Shown here one piece after another: positions 1 through 54,494 of a stretch of DNA of 54,658 bases (positions within the stretch are counted from its first letter, which is position 1; each line of letters opens with the position of its first letter). This DNA is from Clostridia bacterium. Lineage in GTDB: Bacteria; Bacillota; Clostridia; Oscillospirales; Acutalibacteraceae. Both the position numbers and the translations under genes were made by a program. The DNA lies in contig JAGAPJ010000012.1 in the NCBI GenBank assembly GCA_017623315.1, positions 1-54,658 on the forward strand, in the 5' to 3' direction. The notes under the pieces are model-generated. The model ran no database searches. It saw only the letters and a program-made list of their open reading frames with translations, and was not told the origin of the DNA.

Positions 1-237
1 AACCCAAGCCTTCCCCAGCGGGGAAGGTGGCGCCGTTAGGCGACGAATGAGGAGAGCATTAAAGCACTTTCTTAACAATATTCTCCTCATCCACCAACCT
101 TGCGGTTGGTCTGACGGACCCGTCTCTCTCTGTCACTTCGTGACATCTCTCTCGCACTGCGAAAGAGTCTTCCCCTTCTCCGTTGGAGAAGGCTTTTGTC
201 TGTACAATACGCTCGGGCCAATAAACTATAATTTGAA
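1..237. repeat. Nested-palindromic GC-rich intergenic element, copy C (left end cut by window edge)
   Basis: Hairpins at 9-27 (ccttcccc/ggggaagg), 47-90 (atgaggaga/tctcctcat with AT-rich loop), 94-109, 132-144 and 174-192. Ends with tgtacaat...aataaactataatttgaaaa, like the copies at 24779, 39389 and 49917. Confidence 0.8.
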
Positions 238-4101: not shown

Positions 4102-4935
4102 CTAGCAAATTTTAAGCTGTTCACAGTCGTTTCGTTCAGGTGTATTTTTTGAAATTCTCACTTTATATTCAATGTATTTATCGTTTTCATATTTACGGGT
4201 TTTAGCATTTAATCCTGCATTTTGTAAGGTATTTACTAATTTTGAAAGACTGTTGTAAAAAAGCCTAACGTCGCTTATTGCATATTTTCTAATTGGCTTT
4301 TCGGGAGGCAGTTCTTCTTGCTTAGGATTTAAAATATTTTCAATATATTCTTCGCTTTCCTTTAAATTTAAAGCGTTTGCAATAATATAGTTAAGGGCGT
4401 TTTCACGGTCGGTGCCATCAAGACGCAATAATGCACGGGCATGGCGTTCGGTAAGACGGGCGGTAATAATACGCTGGCGTTGATCGTCGTTTAACCTTAA
4501 AAGTCTTAATTTATTTGAAAGTGTAGACTGTGCTAAACCAAGGCGGGTGGCAATTTCAAGCTGTGGCATACCAAAGTGAACTATAAGGCGGTTTATGGCT
4601 TCTGCCTCTTCAAAAAAGGTTAAGTCCTGTCGCTGTAAATTTTCCATTATGGCATAGATTGCGGCGGTTTTATCATCGGTGTTATGTAATACACAGGGAA
4701 TACGGCGAAGCCCAACCATTTTAGCGGCGAGAAAACGGCGTTCACCCGCAATAATTTCATATTTACCGTCAATGCTTTTTCGCACTGCTAAGGGCTGAAT
4801 AATTCCGCTTGACTGAATACTGTCGGCTAAAAGCTTTAATTCATATTCGTCAAAGCTTTTTCGCGGTTGGTTTTTTGATGGCTTAATTTCACTTGGACGT
4901 AACATTAAAAGCTTCTTTTCCCATAGGGTGTACAT
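4102..4935 (-). CDS. ParB/Spo0J/Noc-family DNA-binding protein (Noc-like by its position after rsmG)
   Basis: ParB N-domain motif IIAGERRFLAAK and a following HTH (LEIATRLGLAQSTLSNKLRLLRL). Lies directly downstream of rsmG, as noc does in Bacillus. Confidence 0.85.
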   Translation of the reverse strand: MYTLWEKKLLMLRPSEIKPSKNQPRKSFDEYELKLLADSIQSSGIIQPLAVRKSIDGKYEIIAGERRFLAAKMVGLRRIPCVLHNTDDKTAAIYAIMENLQRQDLTFFEEAEAINRLIVHFGMPQLEIATRLGLAQSTLSNKLRLLRLNDDQRQRIITARLTERHARALLRLDGTDRENALNYIIANALNLKESEEYIENILNPKQEELPPEKPIRKYAISDVRLFYNSLSKLVNTLQNAGLNAKTRKYENDKYIEYKVRISKNTPERNDCEQLKIC

Positions 4936-5020
4936 TCTACCGCCTCCTATGTTTTAGTATAAAAACAGTAACGAATTTTGTAAAGAAAAACACGTCGTTA
5001 AAATTCGGCATAATAAAACA

Positions 5021-5048
5021 AAAACAGCCCGTTTATAAGGGCTGTTTT
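5021..5048 (-). terminator. Hairpin overlapping the rsmG stop codon
   Basis: Stem aaaacagccc/gggctgtttt. Confidence 0.6.
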
Positions 5049-5752
5049 GAAATATTTCCGCTGTTTCGGGGGTATTTTGGCGGTGTTTGCGATATTTTTT
5101 TAAATATTACAAAGGTTCTTGGGTCATTATTGGGGAGCTTTTCGCATATAATTTCGGGTTTTCCCATTTTTAAAACCTTAATTGCGTTATCACAAAGGGC
5201 AATCTCATCCTCGGCAGATGGACCTTTCATAGCAATAAATCTGCCGCCAACCTTTACAAACGGGGTGCAATATTCCATTAAAACAGGCATATTAGCAACC
5301 GCACGTGCACAGGCAATATCATACTTTTCGCGGTAAGTCGGGTTTTTGCCACCTTCTTCGGCACGGCTGTGAATTGCCTCAATATCGGTAAGGTCACATT
5401 TCTCGATAACATCCTTTAAAAAGGTAATGCGCTTATTTAAACTGTCAAGTAAGGTTACCTTTAAATCTTCACGCACAATTTTTAGCACAAGACCTGGGAA
5501 ACCCGCACCTGTACCCACATCAATAATAGAAGCACCAACGGGTACTTTGTTATGCTTAAAGAACAAAATACAGTCGTAAAAATGTTTATATAAAACATCC
5601 TCGGGCGCAGTTATGGCGGTGAGGTTTATTTTTTCGTTCCATTCGAGCAAAAGGTTGCCGTAAAGGTTAAGCTTTTTAATTTTTGTTTCATCCAACATGA
5701 TGCCAAATTCATTGCAAAGTGGGGAGATTTTTTCAATATTAAAATTAATCAT
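5033..5752 (-). CDS. rsmG: 16S rRNA (guanine527-N7)-methyltransferase RsmG (GidB)
   Basis: 239 aa with SAM motif IIDVGTGAGFPGLVLKI and a GidB-like overall sequence. Confidence 0.92.
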   Translation of the reverse strand: MINFNIEKISPLCNEFGIMLDETKIKKLNLYGNLLLEWNEKINLTAITAPEDVLYKHFYDCILFFKHNKVPVGASIIDVGTGAGFPGLVLKIVREDLKVTLLDSLNKRITFLKDVIEKCDLTDIEAIHSRAEEGGKNPTYREKYDIACARAVANMPVLMEYCTPFVKVGGRFIAMKGPSAEDEIALCDNAIKVLKMGKPEIICEKLPNNDPRTFVIFKKISQTPPKYPRNSGNISKQPL

Positions 5753-6428
5753 TATTTTCTCCTAAATAAGCTTCTAAACGATAAATTGGAAAGCCTTGGC
5801 TTGAAAAACGCGCTTCATATTCGGTAACGATATTACCCTCAAAATCGCTGTTATGAAGGTCAAAGGTAACGTTTTTAAGCGCAAAGCCCGACTGTGAAAA
5901 TTCCTCAATAGAAAATTCAAAAAAGTGCATATTGTCGGTCTTTTGGTGAATTTCAGCGCCGTTTTTTAAAAGCTCTTTATAAATTTTTAAAAATCTTCTA
6001 TGTGTTAAGCGGTGTGCGGCGTAGGCTTTTTTGGGGAACGGGCAGGAAAAATTAAGAAAAATTCGGTCAATGGTATTTGGTGCAATAAATCGGGGTAAAT
6101 ATTCTGCACTGCCACCGATAAAATATAAATTATTAATATTTTCTTTATTAGCGTTTTCGCAAGCGCCAACAATAACGTTTGCGGTTTTTTCCACAGCAAT
6201 TAAGTTGATTTCAGGGTGGCTTTTTGCATATTCACAGGCAAATTTACCCTTGCCACAACCAATTTCAAGGTAAATGGGGTTATCGTTTTTAAAAATTTCC
6301 CTAAAATTTATATATTCTTTTTCCTTAATTGCTGTGTTAAAGTTTCTATCATCAATATTTATAGTAAAAAGGTTATTGCTCACAGCCTCTAATCTTTCAT
6401 TTAAATATTTCTTTTTTCGCATTCTCAT
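5745..6428 (-). CDS. trmB: tRNA (guanine46-N7)-methyltransferase TrmB
   Basis: 227 aa with LEIGCGKGKF and FLNFSCPFPKK motifs typical of TrmB. Confidence 0.9.
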   Translation of the reverse strand: MRMRKKKYLNERLEAVSNNLFTINIDDRNFNTAIKEKEYINFREIFKNDNPIYLEIGCGKGKFACEYAKSHPEINLIAVEKTANVIVGACENANKENINNLYFIGGSAEYLPRFIAPNTIDRIFLNFSCPFPKKAYAAHRLTHRRFLKIYKELLKNGAEIHQKTDNMHFFEFSIEEFSQSGFALKNVTFDLHNSDFEGNIVTEYEARFSSQGFPIYRLEAYLGENND

Positions 6429-6491: not shown

Positions 6492-7694
6492 TTAAACAAA
6501 ATCCTTTATCATATTTATAAAATCATTTTCATTCATTAAATGCACGTTTTCAAAAAGGGCAATATCCATATCCTCGGCCCTTTTTCTGAAATATGCTGTG
6601 GCGGTGACGTCTTTGCCGTGATTAGTTGAAACAAGCACTTTTTTTGCATATTTACCGCCAAAACGACGGGCAACAGCGTCTAATTTATAAAGCTCGGCTT
6701 CCTCAATTTCGCCACCCTTACAGGAAATAAAAACAGGAACAAGATTTTTTATTAAAACACAGTCTATTTCATTTTTGGTGTCACCGGTTTTGCTACTGCC
6801 TATCTTTCCGTCCCAGTCGATAATAACGCTTCGTTTGGCATCGTTATAATATGGTGCGCCGTTTTGGTCTTTTATATCAATTGCGGTTTTATAAACCTTC
6901 ATTTCTAAAATATTGCCCGATTTTTCCAAAAGCTCCTTTGCAGTGCTGTTTTTAAATGAAAACTTAATTTCATTGCTTGTTATGTTTAAAAAGGTAATAA
7001 TACCGTCATTTTTTAAAAATTCCAAAAATTCAATAAGCCATTCGCTTGTGCGTTCATCCATTTCGCTGTTTTTGAATTCGGTAAGATTGATTTTTGCAAA
7101 AAGTTCGCGACTGTCACAGTCAAATTTCATTGCACGTTGCAAAAGTTTTACATTTGTGTTGTAATGTTTGTCTGTTTTAAAAACCGACCAAAGCGCCTCA
7201 ATAACAGGACCGGTTTGGTTATTAAGCGGTATTTCATCATTTTTGTTTTCAATAATCATACCGCCGTGAAGGGTTATTTGTTCATCTACCGAAAGGGAGG
7301 CGTTGGTGGACTTTTCGGTTTTTTCACCGTTTTGCCAGGAAACAAGACGGTTTTGGTTAATATGAAAGCGCTGTACGGTAATATTTTTAAAACGTTCTAC
7401 CATAACGCCCATTGCGGTAAGCAAAAGGTCCTCGCCGCCTGTTAAATCAAAGGTGATTTGGGTGTCACTTTTAGCGATGTCGCTTAAAATATCCACAAGG
7501 TTATATAAATCGCTTGTGTCGGTATAAATAAATTCGGCTTTGGTAGATGGCGATTTTGATTTTATAAAACGTGTATAAATATTTTCGCGCTTATCACTTT
7601 TATTACCTATAAATATTATTTTATCGGGGTGAAGGGTTAAAGCGCTAGCAATGTTTTCGGTAGGACAACGGTATAAAAATTCAACTGTGGTCAA
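6492..7694 (-). CDS. CARF-domain protein with a C-terminal PD-(D/E)xK-like nuclease domain (Card1/Can2-like, DUF1887-type)
   Basis: 400 aa. The N-terminal Rossmann-like region has DKIIFIG and FDLTGGEDLL (CARF TGG motif). The C-terminal region has GNILEMKVY ... NEIDCVLIKNLVPVFISCKGGE ... GGKYAKKVLVS, a restriction-endonuclease-like pattern. Confidence 0.65.
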   Translation of the reverse strand: MTTVEFLYRCPTENIASALTLHPDKIIFIGNKSDKRENIYTRFIKSKSPSTKAEFIYTDTSDLYNLVDILSDIAKSDTQITFDLTGGEDLLLTAMGVMVERFKNITVQRFHINQNRLVSWQNGEKTEKSTNASLSVDEQITLHGGMIIENKNDEIPLNNQTGPVIEALWSVFKTDKHYNTNVKLLQRAMKFDCDSRELFAKINLTEFKNSEMDERTSEWLIEFLEFLKNDGIITFLNITSNEIKFSFKNSTAKELLEKSGNILEMKVYKTAIDIKDQNGAPYYNDAKRSVIIDWDGKIGSSKTGDTKNEIDCVLIKNLVPVFISCKGGEIEEAELYKLDAVARRFGGKYAKKVLVSTNHGKDVTATAYFRKRAEDMDIALFENVHLMNENDFINMIKDFV

Positions 7695-16310: not shown

Positions 16311-16330
16311 TATAATTATAATTTGAAAAC
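16311..16330. repeat. Solo copy of the element end motif (tataattataatttgaaaac)
   Basis: Matches the gataaactataatttgaaaac end of copies A and C. It abuts a terminator in the same way they do. Confidence 0.5.
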
Positions 16331-16371: not shown

Positions 16372-17187
16372 TTATTCTTTATTTTTAAGGCGCTTTTTTG
16401 CATCTTCAATGCTTTCGCCGTCTTTTGTAAGATAATTATCAATAAATTTGTCTTCAATTTTTGTGTATCCGTCTACAACTGCTTTTTCAACTGTTTTGTA
16501 TCCGTCGACAACAGTGTTCTCAATTTTTTTATATCCGTCAGTCATAGTGTCAGCCACTTTTTGACCTGCATTTACAATTTTAGATTTTGCCATTTCGGTT
16601 TTCCTCCCTCCTATAAGATTTATTCCTAGCAAAAACACGGTAATATAAACTGCAGTACCCGTTATAATATTAAATATTGTAATGCTATTGAATGGCATAC
16701 CGTTAAATGTGGTAAGCATTGAACGCTGAAGCGCAAAAATTGACACCAGCGCATCCGCAAAGGAAATGTTGCGTAGAGTTTTAACAATGTGCGAGCTGTA
16801 TTTGCGAGACTTTACAAGGTTTATTATTGCAACTGTTACCTTAATAAATGCATAAAGTGCGATGGCAATCATTAAAATTTCATCGTATTTTATACCTCTG
16901 CTTTCGGAAACGGAAAGGTATGCTGTTCCTGCAAGTACTACCGAAAGTGCCAAAAACATAAAGCCGCAAAATTTTTGCGCAAAAAAGGCAAGATTTTTAT
17001 CGGTTTGGGCTTTGGCACGTATTTTTAAAACCGCAAGTCGCATTACACTTAGCACAACATAATAAGCGGCAAGGGTTAAAAACCACCACGAAGGCAGCCA
17101 AATACCTAATATGGTGTTATAAATGCAATAAGCGGTATTCACCATCAAACTTAATAGCGCGGGGGTGAAAATTTTTTCAAATTTCAT
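16372..17187 (-). CDS. Hypothetical multi-TM protein with a C-terminal 11-aa tandem repeat
   Basis: 271 aa. The tail reads DGYKKIENTVV DGYKTVEKAVV DGYTKIEDKFI DNY. Confidence 0.65.
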   Translation of the reverse strand: MKFEKIFTPALLSLMVNTAYCIYNTILGIWLPSWWFLTLAAYYVVLSVMRLAVLKIRAKAQTDKNLAFFAQKFCGFMFLALSVVLAGTAYLSVSESRGIKYDEILMIAIALYAFIKVTVAIINLVKSRKYSSHIVKTLRNISFADALVSIFALQRSMLTTFNGMPFNSITIFNIITGTAVYITVFLLGINLIGGRKTEMAKSKIVNAGQKVADTMTDGYKKIENTVVDGYKTVEKAVVDGYTKIEDKFIDNYLTKDGESIEDAKKRLKNKE

Positions 17188-24052: not shown

Positions 24053-24085
24053 AGCACTCGCATTAATGCGAGTGCTTTCTTTTTT
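24053..24085 (+). terminator. feo operon terminator
   Basis: Perfect palindrome agcactcgcat-ta-atgcgagtgct (24053-24076) followed by ttcttttttg. Confidence 0.85.
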
Positions 24086-24434
24086 GCCGTCTTGCCTTAA
24101 ATTGTTCGTATGCAAATTTGAAAATTTCCGCTTTGCTTTCTTTATTGACGCATCTATACATTGTAATCAAATCATATTCACGTCTATTAAGTTGATAATA
24201 ATCATCAGGTATTTCAATAATTACAGGTGTTTCGGGTATGTCGTCATATAAAAATGTTTTAACGTCAACCTTAAAAAAATCCGCTAAAAGCACCAATTCA
24301 TCGCCGTTAAAATTTCCTTCACGTTCCATTTGTGAATAGGTGCTTGTTTTCATTCCAAGCAAATTGCCAATATTTTTTTGTGAATATTTGTTTTGTTTTC
24401 TTAATTTTTTAACACGCTGATTAATTTTATTCAT
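24063..24434 (-). CDS. XRE-family HTH protein with a C-terminal extension
   Basis: 123 aa. HTH LRKQNKYSQKNIGNLLGMKTSTYSQMEREG. Paralogue of 39036-39401. Confidence 0.8.
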   Translation of the reverse strand: MNKINQRVKKLRKQNKYSQKNIGNLLGMKTSTYSQMEREGNFNGDELVLLADFFKVDVKTFLYDDIPETPVIIEIPDDYYQLNRREYDLITMYRCVNKESKAEIFKFAYEQFKARRQKRKHSH

Positions 24435-24454
24435 AAAATCACCCCAAAACTATT

Positions 24455-24512
24455 ATAGGTCAATTTTACCCTAATTTCAATAGGTCATTTTGACATAATA
24501 TTAAATAGGTGA
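24455..24512. promoter_or_regulatory. Three ATAGGT(C/G)A repeats at 25-nt phasing in the divergent XRE/XRE intergenic region
   Basis: Copies at 24455-24462, 24480-24487 and 24505-24512. An extended -10-like TGaCATAAT lies at 24491-24499. Confidence 0.5.
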
Positions 24513-24516
24513 TATT

Positions 24517-24732
24517 ATGAATAGAGTAAAAGAATTAAGAAAAGAACGTGGTTACACACAAATCAAGATGCAACATCTTACAGGTATTGACCAAAGTGAT
24601 TATTCTAAAATTGAAAATGGTAAAAGATATTTAACCTTCGAACAATGCCGTAAGATTGCCGTTGCACTTAACACGAGTATGGATTATTTGGCAGGATTAA
24701 CAGATGAAAAGAAACCATATCCAAGAGTGTAG
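24517..24732 (+). CDS. Small XRE-family (Cro/CI-type) HTH protein
   Basis: 71 aa. LRKERGYTQIKMQHLTGIDQSDYSKIENGKR. Confidence 0.85.
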   Translation: MNRVKELRKERGYTQIKMQHLTGIDQSDYSKIENGKRYLTFEQCRKIAVALNTSMDYLAGLTDEKKPYPRV

Positions 24733-24778: not shown

Positions 24779-24993
24779 AAATTGGGGTTTATCTAATTTG
24801 GAATGATATTGTAAACCAATGGCTCCCTCTGACGAGGGAGTTGTCACGGAGTGACTGAGGGAGAGAAATGTATTAAATATTGTTTTTTAGTCTCTCCCTC
24901 CGTCTTTTTGCTACGCAAAAATCCACATCCCTCATCAGATGGAGGCAAGGGTTTGTACAATCTATTTACAACGATAAACTATAATTTGAAAAC
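24779..24993. repeat. Nested-palindromic GC-rich intergenic element, copy A
   Basis: Ends aaattggggtttatc / gataaactataatttgaaaac. Hairpins at 24823-24840, 24857-24900 and 24905-24921. Arms 24821-24838 and 24929-24946 are inverted repeats (15/18). Confidence 0.85.
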
Positions 24994-24997
24994 AAAA

Positions 24998-25023
24998 AAC
25001 GAGGTCACGGTTGTGACCTCGTT
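24998..25023 (-). terminator. fba terminator
   Basis: Stem aacgaggtcac/gtgacctcgtt followed by a T-run on the minus strand. Confidence 0.9.
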
Positions 25024-25041
25024 AATTTTTCAAAATTTCAA

Positions 25042-25905
25042 TTAAGCCTTGTTAACTGAACCGAAAAGTTCCATCTTTTCTTTAACGGTTGCTTTAATTG
25101 CTTCAAAGCCAGGAGCTAAAAGCTTTCTGGGGTCGAAGCCCTTGCCGCTTAAGTCCTTACCAGCTTCCACGTATTCACGTGTTGCAGCAGCAAATGCTAA
25201 CTGACATTCGGTGTTAACGTTAATCTTAGAAACGCCAAGAGAAATAGCCTTTTGAATCATATCAGCGGGGATACCTGTACCACCGTGAAGAACTAAAGGC
25301 ATATCGCCTGTGAGCTGTTGGATAGCGTCGAGTGTATCAAAGCTTAAACCTGCCCAGTTTTCAGGATATTTACCGTGGATGTTACCAATACCCGCTGCAA
25401 GCATTGTAATGCCTAAATCAGCAATCATTTTGCATTCATTGGGGTCAGCACATTCGCCTGCGCCTACAACACCGTCTTCTTCACCGCCGATAGAGCCAAC
25501 TTCAGCTTCTAAAGAAAGGCCAAGCTCGTCACAGGTTGCAACCAATTCCTTAGTTTTTGCAATGTTTTCTTCGATGGGGTAGTGCGAACCGTCAAACATA
25601 ACAGATGAGAAACCAGCTTCAATGCACTTTTTAGCGCCCTCATAGCTACCGTGGTCAAGGTGAAGAGCAACAGGAACAGTAATACCAAGCTCATCAATCA
25701 TACCGTTAACCATACCAACAATGGTCTTGTAACCACACATATATTTACCAGCGCCTTCAGAAACGCCAAGGATAACGGGAGAGTTAAGCTCCTGAGCGGT
25801 TAAAAGAATGGCCTTTGTCCATTCAAGGTTGTTGATGTTGAATTGACCAACAGCATATTTGCCTGCTTTTGCTTTTTGAAGCATATCTTTTGCGGATACT
25901 AACAT
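25042..25905 (-). CDS. fba: Class II fructose-1,6-bisphosphate aldolase
   Basis: 287 aa with QFNINNLEW, HLDHG and VLHGGTG motifs. Confidence 0.95.
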   Translation of the reverse strand: MLVSAKDMLQKAKAGKYAVGQFNINNLEWTKAILLTAQELNSPVILGVSEGAGKYMCGYKTIVGMVNGMIDELGITVPVALHLDHGSYEGAKKCIEAGFSSVMFDGSHYPIEENIAKTKELVATCDELGLSLEAEVGSIGGEEDGVVGAGECADPNECKMIADLGITMLAAGIGNIHGKYPENWAGLSFDTLDAIQQLTGDMPLVLHGGTGIPADMIQKAISLGVSKINVNTECQLAFAAATREYVEAGKDLSGKGFDPRKLLAPGFEAIKATVKEKMELFGSVNKA

Positions 25906-38747: not shown

Positions 38748-38948
38748 CTATTTAACTTCGGCGTTTTTAATTGCGTAATCTAAAAGAATGTTTATAAGTT
38801 CATTGCGTGAACGATTGGTATTTTCTGAAAGTTCGTCAAGTTTTTCTACAGTTTTATCCTTGATTCTAATAGAAAAAGTTTTAAATCCATCCTCGCCTTT
38901 GAGGGATTTCTTGTTGATTATAAGTTTTTCTTCCATAATATTATTCAC
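38748..38948 (-). CDS. Ribbon-helix-helix (CopG/Arc-like) protein
   Basis: 66 aa, GTG start. FSIRIKDKTVEKLDELSENTNRSRNELINILLDYAI fits a beta-alpha-alpha RHH pattern. Confidence 0.7.
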   Translation of the reverse strand: MNNIMEEKLIINKKSLKGEDGFKTFSIRIKDKTVEKLDELSENTNRSRNELINILLDYAIKNAEVK

Positions 38949-38965
38949 CTCAATATTATTATGAC

Positions 38966-39004
38966 TTGATTTATGTTATAAATATATGTTATAATTTATA
39001 ACAT
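38966..39004 (+). promoter_or_regulatory. Promoter overlapped by three ATGTTATAA 9-mers
   Basis: TTGATT (38966-38971), 18-nt spacer, TATAAT (38990-38995). 9-mers at 38973-38981 and 38986-38994, plus an inverted copy at 38996-39004. Confidence 0.6.
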
Positions 39005-39035
39005 AATAGGTTTGAAAAAATATAAAGGTGATTAT

Positions 39036-39401
39036 ATGAATAAGATAAATGAACGTGTAAGAAAAATCAGAAAGCAAGCCAAATACAGTCAAGCCATGCT
39101 TGGAAAAATGCTTAATTTAAAAACAAGCACATATTCACAAAAAGAACGTGAAGGTAAATTAAGCTGAGAAGAATTGCTGATATTAGCCGATATTTTTAAG
39201 GTTGACGTACGAAAATTTTTGTATGATGATATAGCGGATGAAATAAAACCGTACGTAATTATCCCTGACGAGTATTATATGTTAAATGACCGCGAAGGTC
39301 ATATAATAACAATGTATCGAAACGTGTCAAAACAAAAGCAAAAGGAAATATTTGCATTTGTGTTTAATACATTTAAAATGAAGCATCATTTCAAATTATA
39401 G
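39036..39401 (+). pseudogene. XRE-family HTH gene (paralogue of 24063-24434) interrupted by an in-frame TGA
   Basis: ATG at 39036. Translation MNKINERVRKIRKQAKYSQAMLGKMLNLKTSTYSQKEREGKLS, then TGA (39165-39167), then EELLILADIFKVDV... in the same frame. The paralogue has Gly at that position. Confidence 0.7.
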
Positions 39402-39687
39402 TTTATCGATTGGTTGAATTGATATATTTTTGGCTCCCTCTGACGAGGGAACTGTTGAGCGTTAGCGAAACTGAGGGAGAGAAAAATATTTGATTTGCTG
39501 TATTTTTATTTTCTCCCTCCGTCTTTTTGCTCCGAAAAATCCACCTCTCGCACTGCGGTGCTCGGTCCCTCCGCGGCTATAACAGTCCACCGGACTGTTA
39601 TTCACTACCGCGTCGCTCGCTACGCTAACCTCATCAGATGGAGGCATTGGTTTGTACAATCAATTCAGCCCCATAAACCCCAATTTT
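39389..39687. repeat. Nested-palindromic GC-rich intergenic element, copy B (with an 84-nt internal insertion)
   Basis: Same core as copy A (ggctccctctgacgaggga ... cctcatcagatggaggc ... gtttgtacaat). Ends tttcaaattatagtttatcg / cataaaccccaatttt. Extra segment at 39545-39628 with a 10-bp hairpin at 39579-39601. Confidence 0.85.
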
Positions 39688-39690
39688 ATT

Positions 39691-40758
39691 CTATAAAAGA
39701 ATCAAATCCTTTGGGCTTTTAGTTAAATTTTCACATCCGTTATCATTAACACAAACAACGTCCTCTATTCTTACCCCGAATTCATTTTCAAGGTAAATTC
39801 CAGGCTCAACCGAAAGCACCATACCGCTTTGAAGCTTGGTGGTATCCCTTAAATTAAACGACGGTGATTCGTGCACTTCAATACCCAGGCTGTGACCAAG
39901 CCCGTGGCCGAAGCAGCCCTTAAACCCTGCATTATCAATAATATTACGGGCAACTGCATCAATTTCCTTACAAACTGCACCTGCTTTGATTTGCTTTAAC
40001 GCTTCAAGCTGTGCCTTAAGCACGGTATCATAAACAAGCCGTTGTTTATCCGAAACATCACCAAGCGCTATTGTACGTGTCATGTCAGCGCAATAACCGT
40101 TATACCTTGCGCCAAAATCCATTGTTATAAAATCACCGTTTTTTAGTTGTCGTTCACCAGGTGTGCCATGCGGTAAGGAGGAATTTTCACCGCTTACCAC
40201 GATAAAATCAAAAGCAATGCCGTCACTTCCGCGTTTACGCATATAAAATTCCAATTCCAAGGCAATTGCCTTTTCGGTTTTGCCTTGACGAATATAGTCC
40301 AAAATATATTCAAAGCCGTCATCAGTCAATGCCTGTGCCTGACGCATAAAGGCAAGTTCTTCATCACTTTTAATCGCACGAAGTGAATATAAATAATCCT
40401 CTTTTTCTTTGTTATCGCTAATTTCAAAACCGTTTAAATTCTTTTTAAGAGACAAAAATTCATTTAAAGAAAGTGTTCGTGTTTCGGTGTAAACATTTTT
40501 AATGTTTTGGCCTTTTAAAATATCGCTAATTTGCTGCCAAAGCTTATCGCTTAAAATAACGTTACAGCTTTTTACAACCCTTTTAGCCTTTTCATAATAG
40601 CGAAAATCTATAATAAAATCAGCACTGTTTGGGGTTATAACCACAACCCCCGCCGATGATTTAAACCCCGTTAAGTAAAAGCGGTTTGGACCGTAATAAA
40701 CAATAAATGCCTCATTATTTTTTAAGTTTTTTTGAAGCTTTTCTATTCTTTTTATCAT
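39691..40758 (-). CDS. M24-family Xaa-Pro aminopeptidase/dipeptidase
   Basis: 355 aa with DFGARYNGYCADMTRT, HGLGHSLGIEVHE and VEPGIY motifs. Confidence 0.9.
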   Translation of the reverse strand: MIKRIEKLQKNLKNNEAFIVYYGPNRFYLTGFKSSAGVVVITPNSADFIIDFRYYEKAKRVVKSCNVILSDKLWQQISDILKGQNIKNVYTETRTLSLNEFLSLKKNLNGFEISDNKEKEDYLYSLRAIKSDEELAFMRQAQALTDDGFEYILDYIRQGKTEKAIALELEFYMRKRGSDGIAFDFIVVSGENSSLPHGTPGERQLKNGDFITMDFGARYNGYCADMTRTIALGDVSDKQRLVYDTVLKAQLEALKQIKAGAVCKEIDAVARNIIDNAGFKGCFGHGLGHSLGIEVHESPSFNLRDTTKLQSGMVLSVEPGIYLENEFGVRIEDVVCVNDNGCENLTKSPKDLILL

Positions 40759-49867: not shown

Positions 49868-49915
49868 AACCGCGGCGGAAAATTTCAGTGGAAAATTTCC
49901 ACCGCGGTTTTTTAT
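49868..49915 (+). terminator. Rho-independent terminator
   Basis: Stem aaccgcgg.ggaaa / tttcc.ccgcggtt followed by tttttt. Confidence 0.85.
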
Positions 49916-49916
49916 T

Positions 49917-50147
49917 CCAATTATAGTTTGTCGGGGAGATAAAATTGACAAATTTAGCCTTCTCCAGCGGAGAAGGTGCCGAGTATACGAGGCGGATGAG
50001 GAGAGCACTTAAGCAGAATCTTTTATTATTCTCCTCATCCACCAAACTTGCGTTTGGTCCCCCTTCCCCGCTGGGGAAGGCTTGATTTATACAATAATTC
50101 CGAATTACGCATTCAGAATTGGGCGTCAGCCCCGTAAATCCAAATTT
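49917..50147. repeat. Nested-palindromic GC-rich intergenic element, copy D
   Basis: Hairpins at 49958-49976, 49996-50038, 50042-50057 and 50062-80, collinear with copy C. Ends ccaattatagtttgtcg / cgtaaatccaaattt. Confidence 0.85.
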
Positions 50148-53426: not shown

Positions 53427-54494
53427 TTATAGTCCAAACTGCGCTTTTACTGCTTGTAGTTTTTCGGAATGCTTCGGATTACGCAAGTCTCTATCAACCC
53501 AATGCGGATAATAATGTGACCAGTATGGATTGTTTGATCCTTCAACTACGCATTGTTGCAAAACATCTAAGGTGAAATTTAGATTGAAGGAAACTCCATT
53601 ATTTACGAAACCTCCATATATCGCTGTTCCGTTATCAATTATACGAAAGTTCTTTCCACATTGATAGCAAACTGCTTTTTCACCAAAATGGATGCTGTTG
53701 CCATACATAATTGGGTAATCTTCATCGTCCGTAATTGGTATATTTCCTATAATTTCGTACTCGCCGTAATACAGTGAATTATCTGCAATGATTGTTGACG
53801 GCAGGGAGCAGAGTGTCTTTAGTTCGTCAACAGAAACATCAGGTTGTTCTGTCACAATATGGTACACACTGCAAACCAAGGGCTTACTCATAAGAATATC
53901 CCAAAAGGGTTCTTTCCCTTTTCGCATCTTATCGTAATCAAGAAGGATTCTGCCATATCCATATAATCTGCGACCAATCTTGAACCGAAACACATCACCT
54001 TCCCGGTAACGAATATGGAGTCGTTTCTGTTGGGAAAAATGGAAAACATCTTCACGATCAGCATCAGATGTTTCAGCACACCAGTCTTCGACCCAACGAG
54101 AAAAACCTGATAAATCTCTGAATTCATCCTGTAGATAACTGTTTGAGTAATAATCGCCCCGATCACCCCAAAGTCTTATGCAGTTACCTTTATAGGATAA
54201 AACCATTCCGATACTTTTGCGCTTTAATATGTTGGAAGATGACAATAGAACAGGTTTACCTTTCGCCGTTTTAGGCATCAAGTATTTTTTATCTGGACTA
54301 ACAGTTTCAGCTAACTCATATTCACAGTATTGTGCATAGCCGCATAAAATGCACTTTACAATCGTGACACCATCAAGATAAATATATGTTTTGAATTGAT
54401 CATACGGACTAGGTTTTACCTCAATGCGTTCCCACTGATCGCTAACAGGTACAAGCGCAAAGCATTTTCTTTGTTCATTTGTTAATTCAAACAT
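53427..54494 (-). CDS. Two-domain protein with an Imm26-like (polymorphic-toxin immunity) C-terminal half
   Basis: 355 aa. REGDVFRFKIGRRLYGYGRILLD resembles the Imm26 GD(I/V)F..P...G.YG.G.VL motif. Confidence 0.55.
   Translation of the reverse strand: MFELTNEQRKCFALVPVSDQWERIEVKPSPYDQFKTYIYLDGVTIVKCILCGYAQYCEYELAETVSPDKKYLMPKTAKGKPVLLSSSNILKRKSIGMVLSYKGNCIRLWGDRGDYYSNSYLQDEFRDLSGFSRWVEDWCAETSDADREDVFHFSQQKRLHIRYREGDVFRFKIGRRLYGYGRILLDYDKMRKGKEPFWDILMSKPLVCSVYHIVTEQPDVSVDELKTLCSLPSTIIADNSLYYGEYEIIGNIPITDDEDYPIMYGNSIHFGEKAVCYQCGKNFRIIDNGTAIYGGFVNNGVSFNLNFTLDVLQQCVVEGSNNPYWSHYYPHWVDRDLRNPKHSEKLQAVKAQFGL

What the first reader, a model, noticed from the sequence alone, without database searches (positions are those of the whole stretch)
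24779..24993. Family of long, GC-rich, nested-palindromic intergenic elements (4 copies plus a solo end in 54 kb)
Four intergenic loci (1-237, 24779-24993, 39389-39687, 49917-50147) share one architecture, although only two pairs (A/B and C/D) share extended sequence. The order of parts is as follows. First an outer end AAATT(GGGG or ATAG)TTTAT. Then an inner arm ATTGTA(C)AAACC. Then a 7-8-bp GC-rich hairpin (copy A: ctccctc-tgac-gagggag, 24823-24840). Then a spacer of about 20 nt. Then a central hairpin with a purine-rich stem and a 24-26-nt AT-rich loop (A: gagggagaga 24857-24866 / tctctccctc 24891-24900). Then a short hairpin (A: tttttgc-tac-gcaaaaa, 24905-24921). Then the mirror image of the first arm, and finally the opposite end GATAAACTATAATTTGAAAA. 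The left and right arms are imperfect inverted repeats: ggctccctctgacgaggg (24821-24838) matches the reverse complement of 24929-24946 at 15 of 18 positions. Each copy is therefore a 215-300-nt imperfect palindrome built from smaller palindromes, and it stands out as GC-rich islands in AT-rich spacers. All copies lie in 3' intergenic space. The organisation recalls ERIC/Correia/RUP-type MITEs, REP/BIME clusters or IS200/IS605-derived palindromic elements, but it could equally be a structured RNA. I cannot assign it to a named family from memory. The track ORFs inside the copies (47-244, 24851-25045, 39462-39659, 39495-39722) are most likely translation artefacts of the repeat.
Basis: seen in the sequence. 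Interest (0 to 1): 0.75.

Follow-up and report, generated by a model that had tools for sequence, protein, structure and literature searches.

The report
Mosaic hairpin repeats in gut Clostridia
The four GC-rich nested palindromes are real copies of a multi-copy, apparently undescribed family of mosaic hairpin repeats, built like the E. coli BIME/REP elements, that sits beside transcription terminators in uncultured gut Clostridia and marks sites of genome rearrangement.

Summary
Four intergenic elements (A 24779-24993, B 1-237 cut by the contig start, C 39389-39687, D 49917-50147) and one solo end (16314-16330) share one design. A conserved asymmetric frame, AAATT-GGGG-TTTATCG ... CGATAAA-CTAT-AATTTGAAA, encloses a five-hairpin, dyad-symmetric module.

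The right-end 18-mer recurs many times per genome in Acutalibacteraceae, Oscillospiraceae and Ruminococcaceae MAGs of about 35-60% GC. Its interiors vary: GTAG-headed REP-like hairpins, AT-rich short repeats, or the window's module in either orientation.

- The ATAG end abuts a terminator hairpin (26 of 49 flanks, against 7 of 53 GGGG flanks).
- The GGGG end often lies within 10 nt of a stop codon.
- There is no Rfam match, no target duplication, no coding potential and no strand bias in G-U pairs inside modules.
- Arms are 97-100% identical at different loci of one genome.
- Closely related assemblies differ at the same sites: A-type, B-type or no element beside the FBA terminator, and a recombinant half-element at C.

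Best reading (about 0.6): a BIME/REPIN-like family of non-autonomous hairpin DNA repeats. The enzyme that moves them was not found.

In passing: half-modules of this family lie inside the rmtG resistance fragment of Klebsiella plasmids, which points to a Clostridia donor.

The parts
24779..24993 (+). Element A, complete. The frame runs from the GGGG end to the ATAG end on the + strand and encloses an A-type five-hairpin module.
24779..24792 (+). GGGG end of A (AAATTGGGGTTTAT), 46 nt after the stop codon of the 71-aa HTH gene.
24821..24946 (+). Five-hairpin module of A: H1 24823-24840, H2 24843-24855, H3 24857-24900 with an AT-rich loop, H4 24905-24921, H5 about 24929-24946.
24974..24993 (+). 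ATAG end of A (ATAAACTATAATTT plus GAAAAC), followed directly by the two-way terminator at 24998-25023.
1..237 (+). Element B (B/D-type module), truncated by the start of the window. The ATAG end is at 221-234, next to the SecF terminator at 244-275. The full 357-nt copy is seen in L119.
39389..39687 (-). Element C (A-type module plus an extra hairpin insert of about 85 nt). The GGGG end at 39673-39686 lies 4 nt after the stop codon of the M24 peptidase gene. The ATAG end at 39393-39406 supplies the stop codon of an HTH pseudogene.
49917..50147 (-). Element D (B/D-type module). The ATAG-type end at 49918-49932 follows the terminator at 49871-49910. A degenerate GGGG-type end lies at 50134-50147.
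16314..16330 (+). Solo ATAG-type end (ATAATTATAATTTGAAAAC) next to the terminator of the gene at 16372-17187. It is either a relic or the frame without an interior.
   Evidence: (D19)

Best explanation
The four loci are copies of a dispersed, non-coding, hairpin-rich DNA repeat family of Oscillospirales. The family is built like the bacterial interspersed mosaic elements (BIME/REP/REPIN) of Proteobacteria.

Each copy has a conserved outer frame made of two inverted ends that differ in one 4-nt box, GGGG versus ATAG. The frame encloses a variable mosaic of palindromic units. In this window the mosaic is a dyad-symmetric pair of half-units that gives five hairpins.

Shown here:
- The family is multi-copy, with near-identical arms at different loci of one genome.
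- The interiors are mosaic, and the frame is conserved.
- The ATAG end sits just beyond a terminator's T-tract, and the GGGG end often sits just after a stop codon.
- There is no target duplication and no strand bias inside modules.
- Copies are substrates of ectopic recombination that reshuffles neighbouring genes between closely related assemblies.

Inferred, not shown:
- The units spread as DNA through hairpins in single-stranded DNA, cut and joined by a trans-acting HUH/Y1 (RAYT-like) enzyme or a comparable enzyme. That enzyme would read the 4-nt boxes as left and right signals.
- Because copies lie between stop codon and terminator, they are co-transcribed and can act as 3'-end stem-loops.
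For: - **Copies in the window.** There are four copies and one solo end in 54.6 kb, and no others.
- **Distribution.** About half are chance hits in unrelated phyla. The rest are multi-copy in Oscillospirales MAGs: at least 13 in Oscillospiraceae SIG584 and at least 10 in Acutalibacteraceae SGB_1444. Many contigs start 100-125 nt before the motif, which is an assembly break inside the repeat.
- **Mosaic interiors.** They include GTAG-headed hairpins in inverted pairs and the window's module in either orientation.
- **Structure kept while sequence changes.** 8 of 18 predicted pairs in H1 and H5 show two-sided changes on a structure-blind alignment. Five hairpins are recovered in 15 or more distinct modules.
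- **No strand bias inside modules.** G-U pairs are 55 of 810 against 53 of 799, and folding energies are equal.
- **Terminator adjacency.** 26 of 49 ATAG flanks have a perfect hairpin, against 7 of 53 GGGG flanks and 9 of 49 random stretches.
- **Stop-codon adjacency** of the GGGG end.
- **No target duplication**.
- **Recent spread or homogenisation.** Arms are 97-100 of 100 identical within a MAG, against 80-90 between MAGs.
- **Polymorphism at one site.** Beside the FBA terminator there is an A-type element, a B-type element (FBA 99.3% identical) or none.
- **Recombinant element at C** and at B.
- **No known RNA or coding potential**.
Against: - No transposase was found: none in the window, and none in 1.28 Mb of fetched loci probed with IS200 and IS608 TnpA sequences written from memory.
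- The window's own copies lack the GTAG head that defines classical REPs.
- No clean insertion with an empty site was captured within one species with synteny kept, so transposition itself is inferred.
- The exact conservation of the ends across genomes of about 35-60% GC, and the persistence of the frame at orthologous sites with different interiors, could instead mean that the frame has a host function.
- Whole elements fold slightly better on the GGGG-to-CTAT strand (33 of 42). Part of that difference lies in the 20 nt at each end: with them removed it falls from -4.8 to -2.4 kcal/mol (27 of 42). This leaves room for an RNA role.
- All comparison data are metagenome assemblies, in which repeats can cause mis-joins.
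Confidence: 0.6

Rival explanations
1. The element is primarily a cis-acting structured RNA. It would be co-transcribed between stop codon and terminator, closed by a terminal helix in which GGGG pairs with CUAU (G-U, G.A, G-U, G-C), and it would stabilise, process or terminate the upstream mRNA.
For: - The GGGG end lies 0-10 nt after a co-oriented stop codon in many copies, and the ATAG end lies just before a terminator.
- The end asymmetry allows pairing only on the GGGG-to-CTAT strand. Whole elements fold better on that strand in 33 of 42 cases, by 4.8 kcal/mol on average.
- Hairpins are maintained by two-sided changes, including between the plasmid copy and its 96%-identical chromosomal relative (direct reading).
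- H2 often carries tandem G.A/A.G mismatches.
Against: - There is no Rfam match.
- Inside modules G-U pairs and energies are equal on both strands, and the inner parts show only a weak bias.
- Modules occur in both orientations relative to the frame. B and D are preceded by a terminator, and in both the frame runs antisense to the upstream gene.
- One orthologous copy (L114) carries uncompensated stem changes.
- Near-identical arms at many loci fit spread as DNA.
Confidence: 0.15
2. The element is a classical miniature inverted-repeat transposable element. It would be a deletion derivative of a DDE-type insertion sequence or transposon, with long terminal inverted repeats that carry repeated transposase-binding motifs (the GCGTAATTCGGAAT repeats).
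For: - The inverted ends extend for up to about 60 nt, including sub-terminal 14-nt repeats.
- The size range is 60-400 nt.
- The family is multi-copy, and minimal versions consist of the two ends plus one hairpin (L043, L031, L058).
Against: - No target-site duplication exists at any offset or length, apart from the palindromic AATT that belongs to both ends.
- If AATT were the duplication, the element tips would be GGG versus ATA, and such tips are normally identical.
- No full-length parent with these ends was seen among the fetched loci.
- The fixed placement and orientation next to terminators is not typical of DDE elements.
Confidence: 0.1
3. The frame ends are site-specific recombination sites, like attC or pdif sites or inverton sites. 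They would bound exchangeable gene cassettes or invertible segments.
For: - The DNA next to A, B and C differs between closely related assemblies.
- A cI/Cro-like HTH gene pair lies beside elements in the window (A and C) and in L050, L100 and L031.
- A 4-nt variable box sits between conserved arms.
- The interior occurs in both orientations relative to the ends.
Against: - At C the divergence starts inside the element, with about 20 SNPs in the ATAG-proximal half. That is the signature of homologous recombination between copies, not of exchange at a core site. The same holds at B.
- No orientation polymorphism was seen at any one locus across 3-6 displayed assemblies per locus.
- The ends lack the two inverted arms around a spacer that tyrosine recombinase sites have, and they do not fit the attC core GTTRRRY (direct reading).
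- No recombinase gene is nearby.
- There are no viral hits for the right end.
Confidence: 0.07

Closest known systems
BIMEs (bacterial interspersed mosaic elements, clusters of REP/PU units) of E. coli and relatives
   Same: - Extragenic and multi-copy.
- Mosaics of palindromic units in alternating orientation, separated by other short motifs.
- Conserved outer motifs, comparable to the BIME A and B motifs (this point is from my own knowledge of Gilson et al.).
- Located after stop codons and near terminators.
- Substrates for rearrangement.
   Different: - No sequence similarity, and a different phylum (Firmicutes, Oscillospirales).
- The outer frame is an inverted pair that differs in a fixed 4-nt box.
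- The window's unit is a 125-230-nt five-hairpin dyad, not a 35-nt palindromic unit.
- Binding of IHF, gyrase or Pol I is unknown.
REPIN/RAYT systems and GTAG- or CGTC-tagged REPs (PMC3116915, PMC3733652)
   Same: - Inverted doublets of hairpins (H1 and H5).
- GTAG-headed hairpins in related copies, such as GTAGGGGCGATTCACGAATCGCCC.
- A CGTC tag before H4 in copies A and C.
- No target duplication.
- Near-identical copies within a genome, with persistence at orthologous sites.
- TIR-flanked variants ('TIRtrons') are described in PMC3733652.
   Different: - No RAYT gene was found.
- H1 and H5 in the window have no GTAG head.
- The PMC3733652 survey text does not mention Firmicutes or Clostridia.
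- The ends are conserved across families of bacteria, whereas REP sequences are usually species-specific.
IS200/IS605-derived palindrome-associated elements (PATEs)
   Same: - Sub-terminal hairpins.
- No target duplication.
- Insertion beside a defined short sequence in a fixed orientation.
- Ends distinguished by 4-nt boxes. In IS608 these are guide tetranucleotides (from my own knowledge).
   Different: - IS200/IS605 ends are not inverted repeats.
- No TnpA or TnpB gene was found.
- The interiors are mosaics of several unit types.
Correia (CREE), ERIC, RUP and BOX elements
   Same: Small, intergenic, co-transcribed, able to fold into long hairpins, and modular (BOX).
   Different: Those elements have defined target duplications (TA for Correia) or a fixed A-B-C module order. 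None has this frame or the adjacency to terminators. There is no sequence similarity.

Membership tests
REP / REPIN (RAYT-mobilised) | A 20-40-bp imperfect palindrome with an unpaired GTAG (or CGTC) head | tested here: inconclusive
   GTAG-headed hairpins are frequent modules inside the same frame in related MAGs and in one assembly's copy of B (L120). The window's H1 and H5 lack GTAG. H4 of A and C is preceded by CGTC.
REP / REPIN (RAYT-mobilised) | Two units in inverted orientation that form a longer hairpin; high copy number; extragenic | tested here: met
   H1 and H5 are inverted copies (15 of 18). A long hairpin is predicted. The family is multi-copy and intergenic.
REP / REPIN (RAYT-mobilised) | A cognate single-copy RAYT (Y1 HUH) gene flanked by the repeats | tested here: inconclusive
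   None in the window. None in 1.28 Mb of loci probed with from-memory TnpA sequences. Whole genomes could not be searched.
BIME | Mosaic of palindromic units in alternating orientation plus extra motifs, with conserved flanking motifs | tested here: met
   Head-to-head half-units occur in the window, and tail-to-tail half-units occur upstream of rsmH. The match is in architecture only, with no sequence relationship to the E. coli motifs.
TIR-MITE (DDE transposon derivative) | Terminal inverted repeats | tested here: met
   AAATTnnnnTTTATCG inverted at both ends, extending inward.
TIR-MITE (DDE transposon derivative) | Target-site duplication flanking the element | tested here: not met
   No direct repeat of 2-9 nt at any offset in 30 elements, except the AATT that is part of both conserved ends.
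Integron attC site | R''/R' core sites (RYYYAAC ... GTTRRRY), cassette arrays, and an IntI gene | tested here: not met
   The ends read GTTTATCG ... CGATAAAC, which is the opposite polarity and a poor fit (direct reading). There are only 4 copies in 54 kb of housekeeping genes and no integrase.
Any Rfam RNA family (including hammerhead, suggested by CUGAUGAG) | Score at or above the family's gathering threshold | tested here: not met
   There were 0 matches in the window and in the element regions of 18 related loci, where the only hits were tRNAs and one lysine riboswitch elsewhere. Only chance-level hits appear at E up to 10. CTGATGAGG is one strand of stem H3, and no GAAA core follows it.

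The most novel reading that the evidence does not exclude
The conserved asymmetric frame may be the signature of an undescribed mobility or recombination system of gut Clostridia that targets terminators. In this reading the 4-nt boxes (GGGG and ATAG) specify left-end and right-end processing. The frames would persist for long periods as 'landing pads' that capture and exchange hairpin units and neighbouring small gene cassettes, such as the cI/Cro-like HTH pair. They would drive strain-level gene-order change and leave traceable marks on DNA exported to other bacteria, as in the rmtG fragment.
Probability: 0.15. Interest if true: 0.8.

Novelty: new variant of a known kind. Interest (0 to 1): 0.55.

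Why it matters
- REP/BIME-type repeats have been studied almost only in Proteobacteria. A comparable, abundant family in Oscillospirales, a dominant but mostly uncultured gut order, would extend that biology to Firmicutes.
- It explains recurrent contig breaks in MAG assemblies. The window itself starts inside a copy.
- It marks hotspots where gene order differs between closely related assemblies.
- The fixed asymmetry of the ends and their docking beside terminators give a concrete handle for finding the responsible enzyme.
- The repeats can also serve as lineage markers. Here they point to an uncultured Clostridia lineage as the likely source of the rmtG aminoglycoside-resistance operon found on clinical plasmids.

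Tried and rejected
- **Hammerhead ribozyme** (CUGAUGAG, CUGACGAG). The motif is one strand of a stem or a loop, no GAAA core follows, and Rfam finds nothing.
- **Known RNA families.** None match.
- **Phage or att-site origin.** The right end has 0 hits in viral contigs. The 10 left-end hits are inside coding genes.
- **Xer/dif site.** The end resembles difSL (AAACTATAATTT) as I recall that sequence, but it has no inverted arms around a spacer, and there are many copies per genome.
- **Inverton.** The interior occurs in both orientations at different loci, but never differs at one locus across the assemblies read.
- **Outward promoter.** The right end holds TATAAT but has no consistent -35 or TG extension (direct reading; one search finds none there). 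Some genes do start 12-15 nt after the end.
- **Real small proteins.** The ORFs inside the copies have no Pfam match.
- **Plasmid or E. coli relatives.** The only hit is the rmtG fragment.
- **Y1 transposase near copies.** None was found. One weak hit in L054 proved spurious.
- **Metagenome scan with the left end.** It gave 28 hits, mostly chance, with about 6 real.
- **Literature searches** for a prior description found none.
- **Full covariance model.** I did not build one. MAFFT misaligned H3 by 2-3 columns, and any alignment fitted to each sequence's own fold would be circular.

Full report
**1. What is in the window.**

The outer ends are AAATT-nnnn-TTTAT in inverted orientation. They are exact at 221-234(-), 24779-24792(+), 24974-24987(-), 39393-39406(+) and 39673-39686(-), and degenerate in D.

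The two ends are not equivalent. One reads AAATT-GGGG-TTTAT and the other AAATT-ATAG-TTTAT. A and B have the ATAG end on the right, while C and D have it on the left. Yet the internal sequences of A and C, and of B and D, run the same way on the + strand. The interior can therefore sit in either orientation inside the frame.

Copy A folds far better than shuffled sequence on both strands, with z-scores of -7.1 and -6.7. A BLAST of 40 related elements from other genomes hits the window only at these four places. A fifth site, 16314-16330, matches the ATAG end of A plus its flank at 25 of 27 positions and also lies beside a terminator.

B is cut by the window start. In another assembly of the same scaffold it is 357 nt long.

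**2. Not a known RNA and not coding.**

Rfam gives no match at gathering thresholds in the window or in the element regions of 18 related loci, where the only hits were tRNAs and one lysine riboswitch elsewhere. At permissive thresholds only chance-level hits appear. The CUGAUGAG-like strings are one strand of stem H3 or the loop of H1, not a hammerhead core. The ORFs inside the copies have no Pfam match. The window otherwise holds housekeeping genes and no transposase or recombinase.

**3. The family beyond the window.**

The window matches a 205-kb metagenome scaffold. Its FBA protein is 99.3% identical to that of an Acutalibacteraceae MAG.

About half are single chance hits in unrelated phyla. 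The rest are multiple hits per genome in Acutalibacteraceae, Oscillospiraceae, Ruminococcaceae and unclassified Clostridia MAGs, with local GC from about 0.3 to 0.6. Many contigs begin 100-125 nt before the motif, which means assemblies break inside the repeat.

Read outward from the motif, the general plan is as follows.
- A gene's stop codon is followed by (T)AAATTGGGGTTTAT(C/G)G...
- A mosaic of 60-400 nt comes next.
- The right end ...CGATAAACTATAATTTGAAA closes the element.
- After it comes either a terminator hairpin or, less often, the ribosome-binding site of the next gene.

The mosaics include several unit types.
- GTAG-headed REP-like hairpins in inverted pairs, such as GTAGGGGCGATTCACGAATCGCCC and GTAGGGACAATTCACGAATTGTCC.
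- Short AT-rich repeats (GCGTAATTCGGAAT).
- Other hairpins.
- The window's five-hairpin module, in either orientation.

The sub-terminal sequences are interchangeable between the two ends. Only the 4-nt box and the outer flank distinguish them.

**4. Anatomy of the module.**

Across 15 or more distinct copies the order is H1 - T - H2 - (T/G)GA - H3 - TCC(GTC) - H4 - CC(AC) - H5. H3 has a purine-rich 5' strand and a variable AT-rich loop of roughly 20-75 nt.

The module is dyad-symmetric. It consists of two half-units, each reading (CTCCCTC)-(C/A)GTC-small hairpin-REP-like hairpin, which face each other across the AT-rich spacer. The stems differ in sequence between copies but stay paired. On a structure-blind MAFFT alignment, 8 of the 18 predicted H1 and H5 pairs show two-sided changes.

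Inside modules the two strands are equivalent. G-U pairs number 55 of 810 against 53 of 799, and the mean energy difference is 0.4 kcal/mol. That is what double-stranded palindromic DNA gives, and it is not what a one-strand RNA usually shows.

Whole elements fold somewhat better on the GGGG-to-CTAT strand (33 of 42, by 4.8 kcal/mol). With the terminal 20 nt removed the difference halves (27 of 42, 2.4 kcal/mol). On that strand GGGG can pair with CUAU.

**5. Where copies sit.**

The outward flank of the ATAG end holds a perfect hairpin of 6 bp or more in 26 of 49 distinct cases, starting about 12 nt away. The figure is 7 of 53 for GGGG flanks and 9 of 49 for random stretches. Read from the terminator, the sequence runs hairpin-TTTTTTGTTTTC-AAATTATAGTTTATCG.

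The GGGG end follows a co-oriented stop codon within 150 nt in 26 of 42 elements, often within 0-10 nt.

No target-site duplication exists at any offset or length, apart from the palindromic AATT contained in both ends.

**6. Dynamics.**

Within one MAG, the 100 nt inside the ATAG end are 97-100% identical at several different loci. The best matches in other MAGs are 80-90%. This indicates recent spread or homogenisation inside genomes.

Closely related assemblies that share identical flanking proteins differ at the same sites.
- **FBA terminator.** It is followed by an A-type element (window, L001, L003, L004), by a B-type element (L010), or directly by the stop codon of an acyltransferase gene with no element (L002). 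A different species has a 375-nt REP mosaic between the same two genes (L100).
- **Locus C.** Three assemblies are identical over the M24-proximal half. They differ at about 20 positions in the ATAG-proximal half and are unrelated beyond the end. This is the pattern expected from homologous recombination between copies at different loci.
- **Locus B.** It shows the same kind of switch inside H1, plus an extra GTAG hairpin in one assembly.
- **Locus D.** It is fixed in all assemblies read.

No locus shows its interior inverted between assemblies, which argues against an invertible switch. All of these comparisons use metagenome assemblies, so some joins could be artefacts. However, the 18-mer end itself is far shorter than the assemblers' k-mers.

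**7. Interpretation.**

The best-supported reading is a BIME/REPIN-like family of non-autonomous hairpin DNA repeats. Its copies dock beside terminators and are reshuffled by ectopic recombination.

The step from 'dispersed repeat' to 'mobilised by an HUH/Y1-type enzyme acting on single-stranded hairpins' is inference. It rests on four things: the lack of target duplication, the hairpin content, the fixed orientation next to a hairpin, and the 4-nt difference between the ends. No such gene was found in the window or in 1.28 Mb of fetched loci.

Three rivals remain.
- A cis-acting 3'-UTR RNA is possible, because of the placement and the terminal G-U pairing. The strand symmetry and the orientation data argue against it.
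- A DDE-type MITE is disfavoured by the lack of target duplication.
- Site-specific recombination sites are disfavoured by the intra-element breakpoints.

What no model yet explains is the exact conservation of the asymmetric frame across bacterial families, and its persistence at orthologous sites while interiors change.

**8. Comparison and novelty.**

In architecture this is closest to E. coli BIMEs and to REPINs, but there is no sequence relationship. The phylum is different, and the framed, asymmetric design and the five-hairpin dyad unit are distinctive. I found no prior description. A broad REP survey does not mention Firmicutes. I rate it a new variant of a known kind, of moderate interest.

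**9. Seen in passing.**

A search of plasmids with copy A hit Klebsiella and Enterobacter IncC plasmids at 83% identity over about 50 nt. The match lies upstream of rsmH in the rmtG-tgt-rsmH fragment, which is bounded by ISCR2 origin-like sequences.

Proteins 92-96% identical to the plasmid RsmH occur on gut-metagenome chromosomal contigs of about 57% GC. Those contigs carry the gene order tRNA synthetase - same intergenic half-modules - rsmH - tgt - FmrO-family gene - rsmI. One of them has spore-protein (SASP) genes nearby, and the nearest named relatives are Clostridia. The FmrO-family protein of one contig is 254 of 264 identical to RmtG. This points to an uncultured Clostridia lineage as the source of rmtG.

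Noticed in passing
L172/L173 (NZ_CP021956.1 133778-136830); L176:1400-4571; L178; L179; L180: The ISCR2-captured rmtG-tgt-rsmH fragment of Klebsiella and Enterobacter IncC plasmids carries half-modules of this repeat family upstream of rsmH. Gut-metagenome chromosomal contigs of a spore-forming Clostridia lineage (about 57% GC; MAGs GCA_965302545.1 and GCA_965348695.1) have the same gene order and intergenic region. Their RsmH is 95-96% identical to the plasmid protein, and their FmrO-family protein is 96% identical to RmtG. This is probably the native locus or donor lineage of rmtG.
   Followed up: partly
window 24063-24732 and 38748-39401; L050:4001-4643; L100:5738-6098; L031:1985-2686: A divergent pair of cI/Cro-like repressor genes (123-aa and 71-aa HTH proteins) lies directly beside elements in the window at A. 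A pseudogenised paralogue of the 123-aa gene (75% DNA identity over 212 nt), paired with an RHH gene, lies beside C. The same pair recurs beside elements in three other MAGs. At C the pseudogene's stop codon is the TAG of the ATAG end. The association looks cassette-like and is unexplained.
   Followed up: partly
window 1 (contig start) and many loci, e.g. L024, L035, L044, L060, L098, L099: The window begins inside copy B, and many MAG contigs begin 100-125 nt before the right-end motif. This repeat family is a systematic cause of assembly breaks in these genomes.
   Followed up: partly
L119:5197-5260 compared with window 1-40: Another assembly of the same scaffold has a 63-nt insert, made of two small hairpins, inside hairpin H1 of copy B. 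The window lacks it. This could be a nested unit insertion or an assembly artefact at the contig end.
   Followed up: no
window 6492-7694 (-) and 53427-54494 (-): A 400-aa protein has a Card1-like endonuclease domain, which hints at a cyclic-oligoadenylate effector. A 355-aa protein has an Imm26 immunity domain. Both are possible defence or immunity genes unrelated to the finding.
   Followed up: no
window 4102-6428: ParB and RsmG (GidB) genes, together with a minimum of cumulative GC skew near 9-10 kb, suggest that the window lies close to the chromosomal replication origin.
   Followed up: no
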